Shown here: in pieces, positions 1,553 through 13,488 of the stretch
Numbering within the stretch: the stretch's first letter is position 1
Layout: the number at the start of each line of letters is the position of its first letter
DNA from: a virus
Taxonomy: Duplodnaviria; Heunggongvirae; Uroviricota; Caudoviricetes
DNA: 35,499 bases
Virus record (IMG/VR): IMGVR_UViG_2541047894_000004
Strand: one strand, 5' to 3'
Notes under the pieces: generated by a model
Told to the model about the DNA's origin: nothing
Seen by the model: the letters and a program-made list of their open reading frames with translations, nothing else
Database searches by the model: none
Translations under genes and position numbers: made by a program

Positions 1553-1741
1553 TCACGAGGACTGAAGTTTCTCGCAATTAAAATTTATCAGTTTTACTTT
1601 CTGCTCTCTGGAAACGCCCGCTTCTTTTTTACCTGAGAGCATTTTTTCGCATTCTGATTTCGTTAGTTTAGATTTTGAATATCTTGTCCAGTTAGTAGGA
1701 GTGCCACCTTCCTTTTCAATAGTGGCGGTAATTTTATACAT
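1553..1741 (-). CDS. ydaC: Small Rac early protein (YdaC/RcbA-like); start uncertain (ATG at 1741 or 1753)
   Basis: ORF between xis and ralR; GGAGG 5 nt upstream of the ATG at 1741; that start codon overlaps the last ralR codons. Confidence 0.55.
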   Translation of the reverse strand: MYKITATIEKEGGTPTNWTRYSKSKLTKSECEKMLSGKKEAGVSREQKVKLINFNCEKLQSS

Positions 1742-1984: not shown

Positions 1985-2530
1985 TTATTCCTCTGAATTA
2001 TCGATTACACTGTATTCCCCGGTTAATACAGAGGAATCTGCAGGATCGATTGTCAGTGGTTCCTTTTCATCCATTGATACTGCACGCTGGATCTCAATTG
2101 ATACGGGCAGATATTTGAACAGGCGACGAATAGCCGTTTTCTTTGCCATTTCTTCCCAGTGAGTTACCCACGGCCCGTTATTACCAGCTTTACTCAGGCT
2201 GCGCACCAGCTCAATCTGTTTGCGCGTCATAACTTCAAACTGAGTACCTCCGTCTTTCAGTCTTGCGACAGCATAGACGTGGGTAACCGGGGCATCTTCG
2301 TTTTCTCCCGGGCGGTGTATTAACTTTTCATCAAGGCCAAATTCGAAGCTAAACTCGTCACCTTCACGGACAACACGGGCTGACAGGCTGGCGATTTTAC
2401 CTGACTTAACGATCAGGTAGTCCAGAGTGGCACAGGTCGATTCAAAATCGTTGCTTGCCCACAGGACGACGTCAGGTTCACCGGATGATTTTTTCGCTTT
2501 CCGTAACAGGAAGAGTGGTTTTGTGCTCAT
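1985..2530 (-). CDS. recT: Truncated RecT-family annealing protein: RecE-like N-terminal 45 aa fused in frame to RecT C-terminal ~136 aa
   Basis: 181-aa ORF; C-terminal part ([31 protein letters not shown]...[35 protein letters not shown]...[12 protein letters not shown]) matches recalled RecT; N-terminal [45 protein letters not shown] matches recalled RecE start; junction near 2396. Confidence 0.7.
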
Positions 2531-9069: not shown

Positions 9070-9756
9070 ATGACCCCAATAAAAATATTTATGACTATTG
9101 CTGATTTCAAACGGCCTAAATTGGAGCTCCCAAACGGGGCAAACAAACTACTACTGCACTCTTGCTGTGCTCCATGTTCCGGTGAAGTGATGGAGGCGCT
9201 TCAGGCCTCGGGAATCGACTATACCATCTTTTTCTACAACCCGAACATTCATCCTCAGAAAGAGTATTTAATTCGTAAGGATGAGAATATTCGCTTTGCT
9301 GAACAACACGGCGTGCCATTTATTGATGCTGATTACGACACAGACAACTGGTTTGAACGTGCCAAAGGAATGGAATGGGAGCCCGAGAGGGGGATCCGTT
9401 GTACCATGTGTTTTGACATGCGTTTTGAGCGGACAGCGCTGTACGCTGCTGAAAATGGTTTCAGTGTGATCAGCAGTTCACTGGGCATTTCACGCTGGAA
9501 AAATATGCAGCAGGTTAACGACTGTGGGCGGCGAGCCGTCGCGCATTATCCGGGCATGGTGTACTGGGATTATAACTGGCGCAAGCAGGGCGGCTCGTCC
9601 CGCATGATTGAAATCAGCAAGCGCGAAAAATTCTATCAGCAGGAATATTGTGGCTGTGTGTATTCTCTGCGCGATACCAATCTACACCGCAAATCTCAGG
9701 GACGCCCTCTTATCAAAATTGGTCAACTCCACTACGGTAAAGAAGAGAAGGAGTGA
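9070..9756 (+). CDS. queH: QueH-like epoxyqueuosine reductase (DUF208 family)
   Basis: [20 protein letters not shown], EPERGxRC and C-terminal YCGC motifs as recalled for QueH/DUF208; own upstream region and downstream terminator. Confidence 0.72.
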
Positions 9757-9788
9757 TTTTATGGAGCACCTTTCTTATTGATTTCATA

Positions 9789-9817
9789 TTGGCGAGGTAG
9801 CGGGAGTTAAGTAAAAT
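9789..9817 (+). promoter_or_regulatory. Putative sigma70 promoter of the hok-like mRNA (TTGGCG-N17-TAAAAT)
   Basis: -35/-10 hexamers with 17-bp spacing about 6 nt upstream of GGGTGCTTGAGGCTATCTGCCTCA, which resembles the 5' end of plasmid R1 hok mRNA. Confidence 0.4.
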
Positions 9818-9884
9818 TGCTGCGGGTGCTTGAGGCTATCTGCCTCAGGCATGAACACCAAAAGGCAGATAGAGAAAAGCCCCA

Positions 9885-9950
9885 GTTAACATTACGCGTC
9901 TCTGCAAGACGCTTAACATTAATCTGAGGCTCAATCTATGCTGAACACAT
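9885..9950 (-). ncRNA. Possible Sok-like antisense RNA overlapping the mok initiation region (approximate)
   Basis: Inferred from hok/sok architecture; candidate minus-strand promoter TTGCCT-N17-TAACCT (rc of plus 9976-9981 and 9953-9958); hairpin GCGTCT/AGACGC at 9902-9918. Confidence 0.25.
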
Positions 9951-10143
9951 GCAGGTTAGCCTCTTACGTGCCGAAAGGCAAGGAGAAGCAGGCTATGAAG
10001 CAGTAAAAGGCGATGTTAATCGCCCTGATCGTCATCGGTTTAACCGTCATAGTGACGGCACTGGTAACGAGGAAAGACCTCTGCGAGGTACGAATCCGAA
10101 CCGGGCAGACGGAGGTCGCTGTCTTCACAGCTTACGAACCTGA
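9949..10143 (+). CDS. mok-like overlapping reading frame
   Basis: 64-aa ORF starting upstream of and overlapping the hok frame, as mok does in hok/sok loci. Confidence 0.4.
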   Translation: MQVSLLRAERQGEAGYEAVKGDVNRPDRHRFNRHSDGTGNEERPLRGTNPNRADGGRCLHSLRT

Positions 10144-10150
10144 GGAGTAA
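9995..10150 (+). pseudogene. hokD: Hok/Gef-family toxin gene (HokD/RelF-like) with an in-frame TAA at codon 4; 45-aa ORF possible from the internal ATG at 10013
   Basis: Reads MKQ*KAMLIALIVIGLTVIVTALVTRKDLCEVRIRTGQTEVAVFTAYEPEE; AGGAG RBS 9 nt before the ATG at 9995; the internal ATG lacks a good SD. Confidence 0.7.
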
Positions 10151-10220
10151 GAGACCGGGCGGGAGAGTAATCTCCCGCCACCTCTGATATGTCAGGCATC
10201 CTCAACGCACCCGCACTTAA

Positions 10221-10240
10221 CCCGCTTCGGCGGGTTTTTT
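10221..10240 (+). terminator. Rho-independent terminator of the hok-like transcript
   Basis: CCCGC-ttcg-GCGGG stem-loop followed by T6. Confidence 0.75.
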
Positions 10241-10358
10241 CACGTACTGTGGTTGTGAATACGATTGGTATTAGGCTATGCTAACAACATTAGCCTGACT
10301 AATTTTGTATTGACTTAATTTTTGTTAAAGAACAGGACGAAGACGTAAGGGTACACCA

Positions 10359-10538
10359 ATGAGCTACGCACTAAAAAAACACCCGCGATTGACTATTCCC
10401 CCTCGCGATAAAAGCGTTGTGGCAGCTCCGCGCCCGGCTATCGATGAAAATTGCACTCATCGTGAGCAGGTGAAAAATGCTTTCGATTTCGGTTTTTCTC
10501 GTTACGAGAAGGCAATGGAAGATCTTTCAAAAGTGTAA
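10359..10538 (+). CDS. Small protein upstream of doc, candidate antitoxin, 59 aa
   Basis: Hand-translated: MSYALKKHPRLTIPPRDKSVVAAPRPAIDENCTHREQVKNAFDFGFSRYEKAMEDLSKV; stop 10-19 nt before the doc start; no family assigned. Confidence 0.5.
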   Translation: MSYALKKHPRLTIPPRDKSVVAAPRPAIDENCTHREQVKNAFDFGFSRYEKAMEDLSKV

Positions 10539-10556
10539 TGATGGGTATTGTGCTCT

Positions 10557-11042
10557 ATGGCTGAGATTGTTGAAGGAGTGCACTACCTTTCGGTTGATGA
10601 TCTTACTGAAATTAATCGCCTTTTAATTGAGCTTCAAACACCAGATGAACCTGTTGGTGTGCTGAGTGTTGATAATTTAAGTTCTTCTCAGTCTCGTCCC
10701 AGTATGGTTCGATGGTATGAGCAAACCAACGACATGTTTGTACTGGCATCGGTATTGATTGAAAGTCTGATTCAGAATCATCCATTTGCCAATGCAAACA
10801 AGCGCACAGCAATGATGGCTGGTGCGGTTTTTTTATTGTTAAATGGATACGAATTAACCGCACCAGGCGATGAAGTTGTGGAGATGGCTGAGGGGCTGGC
10901 CTGTAAAATTTATACACGAGAAGAGCTTGAAAATTGGTTGTGTTATTGGTCTCGTGCGTATGACAGTCGGGAATTATGTAAAACAGGCGCAACTATTGTT
11001 TTGTATGAAACTATCAAGCTTAAAATAGAACAGCAAAACTAA
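10557..11042 (+). CDS. doc: Doc-family toxin (Fic/Doc fold), 161 aa
   Basis: HPFANANKR fits the Doc signature H-x-F-x-(D/N)-(A/G)-N-K-R; small gene immediately upstream; alternative TTG start at 10548. Confidence 0.78.
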   Translation: MAEIVEGVHYLSVDDLTEINRLLIELQTPDEPVGVLSVDNLSSSQSRPSMVRWYEQTNDMFVLASVLIESLIQNHPFANANKRTAMMAGAVFLLLNGYELTAPGDEVVEMAEGLACKIYTREELENWLCYWSRAYDSRELCKTGATIVLYETIKLKIEQQN

Positions 11043-13334: not shown

Positions 13335-13410
<76 letters not shown>

Positions 13411-13413
13411 TAT

Positions 13414-13488
<75 letters not shown>

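What the first reader, a model, noticed from the sequence alone, without database searches (positions are those of the whole stretch)
9789..10240. hok/mok/sok-type type I toxin locus in which hok carries a stop at codon 4
The locus has the hallmarks of a hok family module: a promoter, a 5' leader resembling the R1 hok mRNA start (GCTTGAGGCTATCTGCCTCA), an overlapping mok-like frame (9949-10143), a Hok reading frame nearly identical to recalled HokD/RelF, and a terminator. Codon 4 is TAA where HokD has Gln (CAA). Translation from the original start would stop after MKQ; the ATG at 10013 could still give a 45-aa peptide with the whole transmembrane toxin core but has no SD. This looks like a toxin disarmed by a single point mutation yet kept otherwise intact, with possible residual or conditional activity.
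Basis: partly seen in the sequence, partly recalled or inferred. Interest (0 to 1): 0.5.

Follow-up and report, generated by a model that had tools for sequence, protein, structure and literature searches.

The report
Prophage hok toxin gene with stop codon
This is an ordinary hok/sok toxin-antitoxin locus of an E. coli Rac-like prophage in which the toxin gene has recently been knocked out by a stop at codon 4; the same rare allele is already present and annotated in public genomes.

Summary
[quoted passage not shown] It has a promoter, a leader matching Rfam sok, predicted 5'-3' (tac/fbi) pairing, an antisense Sok gene and a terminator. Codon 4 of hok is TAA where intact relatives have CAA.

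The allele is real and rare. The same TAA version occurs in 7 of 5,426 complete E. coli genomes, always in a lambdoid prophage and mostly in the same Rac-type one. Its 45-aa remnant is recorded on 287 public contigs and is annotated by RefSeq as a Hok/Gef family protein (WP_000903685.1). About 4,300 records carry the intact type.

- The conserved mok start is ATG 9938, in frame with hok, so the same TAA truncates it too. ORF 9949-10143 is open only because of a SNP at 9952 not seen in the other carriers examined.
- The allele also carries Cys15Gly and a 1-nt insertion in the Sok hairpin loop. An intact Gly15/CAA intermediate exists.
- Other hokD-type copies carry independent lesions, both in codons 1-6 and elsewhere.

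Best reading: a young, lineage-restricted loss-of-function allele. Residual toxin from Met7, by reinitiation 6 nt after the stop, is possible but untested. The remnant lacks the N-terminal basic residues found in all non-degenerate relatives sampled. Low novelty.

The parts
9789..9817 (+). hok mRNA promoter: -35 TTGGCG (9789-9794), 17-nt spacer, -10 TAAAAT (9812-9817)
   Evidence: Consensus scan, 9 of 12 matches. It sits 7 nt upstream of the start of the Rfam leader match at 9824.
9824..10000 (+). hok mRNA 5' leader, including the mok translation initiation region and the Sok target
   Evidence: Rfam RF01794 'sok', 118.8 bits (gathering score 59), E=1.1e-26, full model 1-157. The match is on the + strand, so it covers the sense leader.
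9824..9835 (+). 5' element GGGUGCUUGAGG (tac-like) predicted to pair with the 3' fbi-like element
   Evidence: In the MFE fold of 9824-10235, 9824-9835 pairs with 10200-10212. Energy is -174.3 kcal/mol, z = -8.6 against shuffles. The pairing is kept in all single-mutation revertants.
10200..10212 (+). 3' fold-back (fbi-like) element CCUCAACGCACCC
   Evidence: Pairs with the 5' end in the MFE structure. The sequence is invariant in the alignments of relatives.
9875..9946 (-). Sok antisense RNA gene (72 nt), complementary to the mok SD and start codon
   Evidence: The sokW misc_RNA annotated in phage 933W maps to these coordinates through the alignment. It folds as a 14-nt single-stranded 5' tail, a long hairpin and a U tail: -30.8 kcal/mol, z = -5.9.
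9953..9981 (-). Putative Sok promoter: -35 TTGCCT (9981-9976), 17-nt spacer, -10 TAACCT (9958-9953)
   Evidence: Read directly from the sequence. The spacing places +1 at 9946, the annotated 5' end of sokW. It falls below the threshold of the consensus scan, so it is inferred, not detected.
9901..9901 (+). 1-nt T insertion in the apical loop/stem of the Sok terminator hairpin (and of the complementary hok mRNA hairpin)
   Evidence: Present in the window and in the APEC O1-type alleles. Absent from the intact K56-43 allele and from the Gly15/CAA intermediate L017.
9926..10006 (+). mokW-type frame: SD GAGG 9926-9929, ATG 9938, in frame with hok, now ending at the same TAA (22-aa ORF 9938-10006)
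   Evidence: ORF list. The 933W mokW CDS maps to 9938-10150. In at least 108 of 111 IMG/VR leaders the mok ATG lies 57 nt upstream of the hok ATG, in frame. 70-aa products are common in the protein database.
9952..9952 (+). SNP not seen in the other carriers examined: C here, T in all of them
   Evidence: It is the only difference from 6 of the 7 sampled TAA-allele loci over 501 nt. It is synonymous in the mokW frame (TGT>TGC) and removes the TAG that otherwise closes frame 1 after ATG 9949. One of about 111 IMG/VR leaders also has C.
9949..10143 (+). 64-aa ORF in the classical (out-of-frame) Mok frame, open only in this window
   Evidence: ORF list. It shares its C-terminal ~50 aa with the annotated 68-aa Mok of phage Rac 442/2. 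Weak Pfam DUF5431 hit, E=0.0056, below the cut-off. No SD upstream. The exact protein is absent from the 15-billion-protein collection.
9980..9997 (+). hok SD (AAGGAG 9980-9985) and hok start codon ATG 9995-9997
   Evidence: Direct reading. Invariant in the alignments.
10004..10006 (+). Premature stop TAA at hok codon 4 (CAA in intact alleles)
   Evidence: The identical allele is in 7 complete genomes. In the predicted fold the change turns a C-G pair with G10118 into U-G without altering the architecture.
10013..10150 (+). Remnant 45-aa Hok ORF starting at Met7
   Evidence: ORF list. Pfam HOK_GEF E=1.1e-21, profile positions 2-42 of 42. Annotated by PGAP as WP_000903685.1 'Hok/Gef family protein'. 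The exact protein is on 287 contigs.
10037..10039 (+). Codon 15 GGT (Gly) in place of the usual TGT (Cys) in the transmembrane segment
   Evidence: All 110 intact IMG/VR copies have Cys. In 50%-identity cluster representatives the position is Cys in 35 of 48, with one natural Gly. An intact 51-aa Gly15 protein exists on 2 contigs.
10220..10240 (+). Intrinsic terminator: ACCCGC-TTCG-GCGGGT followed by a T run
   Evidence: Direct reading. It forms the last hairpin in the MFE fold. It was not flagged by the consensus terminator scan.

Best explanation
[quoted passage not shown] It sits in the accessory region (queH - hok - phd/doc-like pair) of a Rac-type lambdoid prophage of E. coli integrated next to ttcA.

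In intact relatives the module works as follows. A stable hok mRNA is held closed by pairing of its 5' end with a 3' fold-back element. The short antisense Sok RNA pairs with the mok ribosome-binding site and blocks mok translation, and through it hok translation. When Sok is lost, the membrane toxin Hok is made.

Here a single C>T transition turned hok codon 4 (CAA) into TAA. In this subfamily the mok start (ATG 9938) is in frame with hok. The same stop therefore ends both reading frames, leaving only a 22-aa and a 3-aa peptide.

The allele is a recent, rare, lineage-restricted loss-of-function variant, that is, a young pseudogene. It arose on a backbone that had already acquired Cys15Gly. 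It is inherited with the prophage and occasionally recombines into another lambdoid prophage. The promoter, leader, Sok gene, fold-back element and terminator look intact because too little time has passed for them to decay.

Shown here: the sequence features, their homology and the population distribution. Inferred: transcription of both RNAs, loss of toxicity, and the order of the mutations.
For: Family identity:
- Rfam sok hit at 118.8 bits and Pfam HOK_GEF.
- 94-96% DNA identity to the annotated hokW/mokW/sokW locus of phage 933W and to other phage hok loci.
- HokW-SokW was shown experimentally to be a working type I TA that assists lysis and phage release (PMC8621323).

Stop codon:
- TAA here against CAA in relatives.

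Rare and clonal distribution:
- Exactly 7 of 5,426 complete genomes have the 66-nt TAA+GGT stretch at 100% identity, against about 4,300 records with the intact type.
- At least six of the seven carry it in the same prophage at ttcA/intR, with 99.4-99.9% identity over 25 kb.
- Six of the seven sampled carriers differ from the window by only the 9952 SNP over 501 nt.
- Only 1 IMG/VR contig carries the allele.

Stepwise history on one backbone:
- K56-43 has TGT and CAA.
- L017 has GGT and CAA in the same queH-hok-Fic context.
- The APEC O1 type adds the T at 9901 and the TAA.
- The window adds 9952 T>C.

General background of hok decay:
- Independent lesions in other hokD-type copies: start loss ATG>ACG, amber at codon 3, the same ochre at codon 4 on another backbone, and a -1 frameshift. 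Each is rare in complete genomes.
- Q38 stop in one IMG/VR copy.
- Many frameshift or fusion derivatives with breakpoints all along the ORF among 50%-identity cluster representatives.
- Published estimates: 2.6% of unique hok CDS carry internal stops (bioRxiv 10.1101/2025.08.07.668861), and chromosomal hok loci of K-12 are inactivated by IS elements, point mutation or rearrangement (Pedersen and Gerdes 1999, as cited in PMC8309996).

Likely loss of function of the remnant:
- It lacks any Lys or Arg before the transmembrane segment. All non-degenerate family representatives sampled have one in the first 8 residues (45 of 48; the 3 exceptions are N-terminally frameshifted forms).
Against: - Loss of toxicity is not demonstrated. 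The 45-aa ORF from ATG 10013 keeps 41 of 42 Pfam profile positions. It begins 6 nt after the stop, a distance at which termination-reinitiation can still work in E. coli (PMC10666635).
- Several independent lesions that all spare the Met7 ORF could hint at selection for an attenuated toxin. That sample, however, was conditioned on the Met7 ORF being present.
- Cys15Gly cannot be counted as a second inactivating hit. R1 Hok C16A stays toxic on overexpression (bioRxiv 10.1101/2025.08.07.668861), and one natural homologue has Gly at this position.
- No expression data were available for either RNA.
Confidence: 0.8

Rival explanations
1. Attenuated but active toxin. Ribosomes that start at the mok ATG (9938) or the hok ATG (9995) terminate at TAA 10004-10006 and reinitiate at ATG 10013. 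This produces a 45-aa Hok with the whole transmembrane and periplasmic core. The locus would then remain a weaker or conditional toxin-antitoxin system still controlled by Sok.
For: - The stop-to-start spacing is 6 nt. Distances of -8 to +10 nt are treated as compatible with termination-reinitiation in E. coli (PMC10666635).
- The Pfam domain is retained almost completely.
- PGAP calls the ORF a Hok/Gef family protein.
- At least four other kinds of lesion in codons 1-6 also leave this ORF open.
- R1 Hok tolerates alanine at the conserved Cys (bioRxiv 10.1101/2025.08.07.668861).
Against: - There is no usable SD: AAGG ends only 2 nt before the ATG.
- The remnant has no basic residue ahead of the transmembrane helix, and TRKD follows it. 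By the positive-inside rule this favours inverted topology. All non-degenerate representatives keep an N-terminal Lys or Arg.
- The recurrence of N-terminal lesions was found by a look-up conditioned on this ORF. Lesions elsewhere in the gene are also common.
- All the lesion alleles are rare.
- The allele is too young to show any selection.
Confidence: 0.12
2. Orphan antitoxin. With the toxin dead, the retained Sok RNA is the useful part. It would neutralise hok mRNAs with a matching leader from co-resident or incoming hokW/hokD-bearing prophages, acting as anti-addiction or as interference with the lysis help of a superinfecting phage.
For: - The Sok gene, its inferred promoter and its fold are intact.
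- E. coli genomes carry a median of 2, and up to 10, places matching this locus.
- HokW contributes to phage release in Sp5 (PMC8621323), so a matching Sok could in principle interfere.
Against: - The segment targeted by the Sok 5' tail (mok codons 2-5) is the most variable part of the leader among copies, with 10 or more versions in 111 loci. Cross-protection would reach only a minority of copies.
- There is no sign that the allele has spread (7 of 5,426 genomes).
- An intact Sok is equally expected for a young pseudogene.
- No expression data.
Confidence: 0.06
3. The stop is normal for this gene (a different gene structure), or the product is completed by suppression, readthrough or RNA editing.
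For: The prophage carries two tRNA genes. hokD-type mRNAs are known targets of TadA A-to-I editing at a TACG motif (bioRxiv 10.1101/2025.08.07.668861; PMC5630033).
Against: - Intact homologues have CAA at this codon in 110 of 112 IMG/VR loci and in about 4,300 genome records.
- The phage tRNAs are Thr(UGU) and Gly(UCC), not suppressors.
- The stop context GUAAAAG has no TACG editing motif. Editing UAA to a sense codon would also need two A-to-I events.
Confidence: 0.01
4. Sequencing or assembly error in the window.
For: None beyond the fact that it is a single-base difference from the common allele.
Against: The identical allele occurs in 7 independent complete genomes. It is also found in one IMG/VR contig and on 287 contigs in the protein-to-contig index.
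Confidence: 0.01

Closest known systems
hokW-mokW-sokW of Shiga-toxin phages 933W / Sakai prophage 5 (annotated in AF125520; function shown by Takada et al. 2021, PMC8621323)
   Same: About 94% DNA identity over the whole locus. The layout is the same: leader, Sok on the opposite strand over the mok start, mok ATG 57 nt upstream of and in frame with hok, a 51-aa Hok, and a fold-back element. Both lie in the accessory region of a lambdoid prophage.
   Different: HokW is intact and toxic and contributes to lysis and phage release. Here codon 4 is a stop, codon 15 is Gly, and the C-terminus is of the HokD type (FTAYEPEE rather than FVDYESEK). 933W also lacks the terminal hairpin sequence seen here.
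hokD (relF) of the E. coli K-12 Qin prophage
   Same: The protein is the same apart from the stop and Gly15 (49 of 51 codons). PGAP names the intact allele in the same prophage context HokD, WP_000813254.1.
   Different: In the relBE-hokD arrangement (seen in L010 and L016) the leader, mok and sok are replaced by relBE, and the toxin ORF is intact. Here it is the reverse: the regulatory RNA elements are complete and the toxin ORF is broken.
hok/mok/sok (parB) of plasmid R1
   Same: Same family (Pfam HOK_GEF, Rfam sok) and the same logic: 5'-3' fold-back, antisense RNA over the mok initiation region, and hok translation dependent on mok (established knowledge, summarised in PMC8309996 and PMC8621323).
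   Different: In R1, mok overlaps hok out of frame. Here the conserved mok start is in frame with hok. HokW has only 44% protein identity to R1 Hok (PMC8621323). This locus is prophage-borne rather than plasmid-borne, and its toxin is truncated.
Inactivated chromosomal hok loci of E. coli (Pedersen and Gerdes 1999, as cited in PMC8309996) and the 'degenerated' hok CDS of the Escalera-Maurer et al. catalogue (bioRxiv 10.1101/2025.08.07.668861)
   Same: A hok locus disabled by mutation while much of the locus remains recognisable. Internal stops are reported in 2.6% of unique hok CDS.
   Different: The K-12 cases cited are IS insertions, a rearrangement and point mutation. This one is a clean nonsense mutation at codon 4 that also cuts the in-frame mok. 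I found no paper that describes this particular allele.

Membership tests
[quoted passage not shown] | Small ORF with the Hok/Gef domain (single transmembrane helix plus periplasmic tail) | tested here: met
   Pfam PF01848 HOK_GEF: E=1.1e-21 for the 45-aa remnant (profile 2-42 of 42) and E=1.2e-23 for the 51-aa intact HokD sequence, i.e. the frame with codons 4 and 15 restored to Gln and Cys.
[quoted passage not shown] | Toxin ORF open from its canonical start codon | tested here: not met
   TAA at codon 4, 10004-10006. The locus is a member by descent, but its toxin gene is interrupted.
[quoted passage not shown] | Conserved hok mRNA leader / Sok target structure | tested here: met
   Rfam RF01794, 118.8 bits against a gathering score of 59, full-length match at 9824-10000.
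[quoted passage not shown] | Long-range pairing of the mRNA 5' end (tac) with a 3' fold-back inhibition element (fbi) | tested here: met
   In the MFE structure 9824-9835 pairs with 10200-10212, z = -8.6. The pairing is stable to reverting each mutation. This is an in-silico test only.
[quoted passage not shown] | cis-encoded antisense Sok RNA covering the mok initiation region, with its own promoter and terminator hairpin | tested here: met
   The homologue of the annotated sokW maps to 9946-9875 and has a 5' tail plus hairpin plus U-tail fold. The promoter TTGCCT-17-TAACCT was read from the sequence and falls below the scan threshold. Expression is not testable here.
[quoted passage not shown] | mok reading frame whose translation is required for hok translation | tested here: inconclusive
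   The conserved SD and ATG 9938 are present, but in frame with hok (the mokW type) and cut by the same TAA. Translational coupling itself cannot be tested with these tools.
[quoted passage not shown] | Toxicity of the product and its neutralisation by Sok | not testable with these tools
   Shown for the intact relative HokW-SokW (PMC8621323) and for HokD on overexpression (bioRxiv 10.1101/2025.08.07.668861). Not shown for this allele.
HokD / HokW subfamily | Near-identity to HokD/HokW protein and locus DNA | tested here: met
   49 of 51 codons match WP_000813254.1. The DNA is 99.2% identical to intact hokD loci in the same prophage and 94-96% identical to phage hokW-type loci. NCBIfam Hok models score below their cut-offs even for the intact sequence, so this rests on identity, not on a curated model.
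HokD / HokW subfamily | N-terminal basic residues (MKQQK) ahead of the transmembrane helix | tested here: not met
   They are encoded before or around the stop, so the only long ORF starts at Met7 without them. 45 of 48 family representatives have K or R in this segment, and the 3 exceptions are N-terminally frameshifted.

The most novel reading that the evidence does not exclude
The Met7 ORF is translated by termination-reinitiation 6 nt after the premature stop. It would yield a weakened or conditionally active 45-aa Hok still governed by Sok. The repeated, independent lesions in hok codons 1-6 (start loss, amber 3, ochre 4 on two backbones, -1 frameshift) would then reflect recurrent selection to turn the prophage toxin down rather than off.
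Probability: 0.07. Interest if true: 0.5.

Novelty: already known. Interest (0 to 1): 0.13.

Why it matters
It matters little beyond annotation. The case shows that a 45-aa 'Hok/Gef family protein' in RefSeq (WP_000903685.1, and the Cys version on 624 contigs) is the remnant of an interrupted hokD-type gene, not a distinct short toxin. It also shows that in this prophage subfamily the mok start is in frame with hok, so one nonsense mutation removes both products. If the remnant proved to be made and active, it would be a simple natural example of toxin attenuation through reinitiation. Nothing found here argues for that over ordinary gene decay.

Tried and rejected
- The consensus terminator scan found nothing in 9700-10350, although a textbook hairpin plus T run lies at 10220-10240. 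I relied on direct reading and the fold.
- The consensus promoter scan did not find the Sok promoter on the minus strand. It was placed by homology to sokW and by spacing.
- I first took Cys15Gly for a second inactivating hit at an invariant residue. I rejected this. The position is Cys in only 35 of 48 representatives, one natural homologue has Gly, and R1 C16A is still toxic (bioRxiv 10.1101/2025.08.07.668861).
- I considered that lesions are concentrated in codons 1-6. I rejected this as evidence of selection because the look-up was conditioned on the 45-aa ORF. Cluster representatives show frameshifts and fusions all along the gene, and an unconditioned IMG/VR sample gave one Q38 stop and one disruption but no N-terminal lesion.
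- Suppressor tRNA idea: the two prophage tRNAs are Thr(UGU) and Gly(UCC).
- RNA-level effect of the nonsense mutation: it only changes a predicted C-G pair to U-G, and the MFE architecture is unchanged.
- The genome-contig scan gave just 10 stretches, several in evidently contaminated MAGs, and added little.
- NCBIfam has no Hok model that reaches its cut-off even for intact HokD.
- One literature search failed on a syntax error.
Full report
**Observation.** On the + strand the hok frame reads ATG 9995, AAG, CAG, TAA 10004-10006, AAG, GCG. ATG 10013 then opens a 45-aa ORF that ends at 10150. Read through the stop, the frame is MKQ*KAMLIALIVIGLTVIVTALVTRKDLCEVRIRTGQTEVAVFTAYEPEE. It matches the 51-aa protein that PGAP names HokD (WP_000813254.1) at every codon except codon 4 (stop for Gln) and codon 15 (Gly for Cys).

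**Identity of the locus.** Rfam places the hok leader/Sok family RF01794 at 9824-10000 with 118.8 bits against a gathering score of 59. A sigma-70-like promoter, TTGGCG-17-TAAAAT, ends at 9817, seven bases before that match begins. The MFE fold of 9824-10235 pairs the 5' end (9824-9835) with 10200-10212. This is the tac/fbi closure typical of hok mRNAs, and the fold is far more stable than shuffled sequence (z = -8.6). The transcript ends in a hairpin plus T run at 10220-10240.

Phage 933W has an annotated hokW/mokW/sokW locus that is about 94% identical. Through the alignment, its sokW maps to window 9946-9875 on the minus strand. That 72-nt RNA folds into a single-stranded 5' tail, a long hairpin and a U tail. 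It covers the mok SD (GAGG 9926-9929) and start codon (ATG 9938). The intact HokW-SokW pair has been shown to be a working type I system that helps lysis and phage release after mitomycin C (PMC8621323).

**Context.** The window is a Rac-type lambdoid prophage. The closest complete genomes (99.4-99.9% over 25 kb) show intR next to ttcA, then ralR/RalA, recET, kilR, sieB, a repressor region, ydaV, DUF1627, DUF977, queH, hok, a 59-aa ORF plus a Fic/Doc toxin, the Q region, two tRNAs, lysis genes, trkG and the terminase. The hok locus therefore sits among other accessory and addiction-type genes.

**The mok frame.** It shares about 50 C-terminal residues with the annotated Mok of phage Rac 442/2, which has an extra T in its leader. 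It also gives a weak, sub-threshold DUF5431 hit.

Its start codon, however, is not conserved. In six of the seven other TAA-allele loci examined, the only difference from the window over 501 nt is T instead of C at 9952, so the frame reads ATG-TAG there. The same is true of all but one of about 111 IMG/VR leaders.

The conserved start is ATG 9938, 57 nt upstream of and in frame with hok. That is how 933W annotates mokW. It also explains why 70-aa 'Hok family toxin' entries are so common in the protein database. In that frame the 9952 change is synonymous (TGT>TGC). One consequence follows: the TAA at hok codon 4 also terminates the mokW-type frame, leaving a 22-aa ORF (9938-10006).

**Distribution.**
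- A 66-nt query across the stop and codon 15 is matched at 100% in exactly 7 of 5,426 complete E. coli genomes.
- The next-best records in that search are at 97.0%, the two-mismatch intact type. About 4,300 records fall in that band.
- All seven are annotated with the 45-aa ORF as 'Hok/Gef family protein', WP_000903685.1.
- The exact 45-aa protein is recorded on 287 contigs. All seven distinct places sampled share the hok, 59-aa ORF and Fic/Doc downstream context. Six also share the queH side. The seventh, a second copy in strain AH19B041, lies in another lambdoid prophage and has a recombination breakpoint in the leader.
- IMG/VR holds one contig with the allele.

The allele is therefore real, but rare and essentially clonal.

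**History of the allele.** On the same backbone, strain K56-43 has TGT at codon 15 and CAA at codon 4. Locus L017, in the same queH-hok-Fic context, has GGT and CAA and encodes an intact 51-aa Gly15 HokD that is known from only two contigs. The APEC O1-type allele adds a T at 9901 and the TAA. The window adds 9952 T>C.

The T insertion lies at the tip of the Sok terminator hairpin and appears to extend the stem. In the predicted mRNA fold the nonsense change only converts a C-G pair to U-G. Gly15 should not be counted as a second knockout, for three reasons. The position is Cys in 35 of 48 diverse representatives. One natural homologue has Gly there. Hok R1 C16A remains toxic on overexpression (bioRxiv 10.1101/2025.08.07.668861).

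**Background of hok decay.** Looking up the Cys version of the 45-aa ORF (624 contigs) revealed other, independent lesions in hokD-type copies:
- ATG>ACG start loss;
- CAG>TAG at codon 3;
- the same CAA>TAA on a different backbone;
- a -1 frameshift in the A run of codons 4-5.

Each is rare in complete genomes, at 5-6, 2-3 and at most 1 records for the three alleles I queried.

That sample is biased, because it was selected for the Met7 ORF. Two less biased views show that decay is not confined to the N-terminus. Among 112 scorable IMG/VR loci fetched by a leader pattern, 110 were intact, one had a Q38 stop and one was disrupted right after the leader. Among 50%-identity cluster representatives there are many HokD derivatives that switch frame or fuse to other sequence, with breakpoints all along the ORF.

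This agrees with published figures. Internal stops occur in 2.6% of unique hok CDS (bioRxiv 10.1101/2025.08.07.668861), and several K-12 chromosomal hok loci are known to be inactivated (Pedersen and Gerdes 1999, as cited in PMC8309996).

**Possible residual activity.** In favour of it, the Met7 ORF keeps 41 of 42 Pfam profile positions. It also starts 6 nt after the stop, a spacing at which termination-reinitiation still operates in E. coli (PMC10666635). The absence of an SD is therefore not decisive.

Against it, the remnant has no Lys or Arg ahead of the transmembrane helix, while TRKD follows the helix. Every non-degenerate representative of the family keeps an N-terminal basic residue (45 of 48, with the three exceptions all N-terminally frameshifted). 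By the positive-inside rule (my inference), the truncated peptide would insert poorly or in the wrong orientation, and the C-terminal domain normally acts in the periplasm (PMC8309996).

Carriers differ by 0-1 bases per 501 nt, so the data cannot show selection for or against the remnant. Suppression is unlikely. The two prophage tRNAs are Thr(UGU) and Gly(UCC), and the stop context lacks the TACG motif used by TadA editing.

**Verdict.** The locus is an ordinary member of the hokW/hokD subfamily carrying a young, rare nonsense allele that is already present and annotated in public genomes. The assignment of the mok frame and the phrase 'otherwise intact' need correction. Interest is low. The only reading with some novelty, a reinitiated and attenuated toxin, is possible but unsupported.

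Noticed in passing
window 2395-2401: Junction of a deletion of about 2.85 kb relative to the closest complete genomes (DLL7555 locus L004, 3402-6251). It removes the 3' part of recT and most of recE. The blast pieces overlap by 7 nt, which suggests a short direct repeat at the junction.
   Followed up: partly
window 1557-1735 (+): RalA antitoxin sRNA, Rfam RF02694 at 220.7 bits, lies next to ralR on the opposite strand. This is a second type I toxin-antitoxin system in the same prophage.
   Followed up: no
window 10359-11042 (+): Immediately downstream of hok there is a 59-aa ORF followed by a 164-aa Fic/Doc ORF. PGAP names the latter 'type II toxin-antitoxin system death-on-curing family toxin'. 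The pair looks like a phd/doc-like module, so three TA-type modules sit in one prophage.
   Followed up: no
window 9941-9952, and loci L018-L137: Among about 111 hokW/hokD-type leaders from IMG/VR the sequence is almost invariant except for mok codons 2-5, which come in 10 or more versions. That is the segment bound by the single-stranded 5' tail of Sok. The pattern looks like diversification of Sok/target specificity between co-resident copies.
   Followed up: partly
window 9949-10143 and 9952: A T>C change not seen in the other carriers examined turns ATG-TAG into ATG-CAG and opens a 64-aa ORF in the classical Mok frame. The exact protein is absent from the 15-billion-protein collection. In the predicted fold the change also weakens a local hairpin over the mok start. 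It lies just downstream of the inferred Sok -10 box.
   Followed up: partly
L142 (strain AH19B041, CP196316.1 3956825-3961962) compared with window 9780-9880: The same strain carries the TAA/Gly15 allele twice. The second copy is in another lambdoid prophage with different upstream genes and a different promoter and early leader. This points to a recombination breakpoint inside the hok leader.
   Followed up: partly
L016 and L017: The rare Gly15 substitution with an intact codon 4 occurs in two different contexts: relBE-hokD (L016) and queH-hok-doc (L017). This suggests gene conversion between hokD copies rather than two independent mutations.
   Followed up: no
window 10133-10136: The TACG motif at the Tyr47 codon is retained in the remnant ORF. 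This is the TadA A-to-I editing site reported to recode Tyr to Cys in hokC/D/E mRNAs (bioRxiv 10.1101/2025.08.07.668861).
   Followed up: no
window 13335-13488: Two prophage-borne tRNA genes, Thr(UGU) and Gly(UCC), lie between the Q region and the lysis genes.
   Followed up: yes
L147, L150, L151, L155 (genome contigs): Near-identical E. coli hokD-type loci turn up in records labelled Xanthomonas pisi, 'Candidatus Scatousia', Haemophilus sp. MAG and Veillonella parvula MAG. A phage record labelled Actinobacillus phage vB_Apl-pPE4 also matches at 95.9%. These are most likely contamination or mis-binning of E. coli prophage DNA.
   Followed up: no
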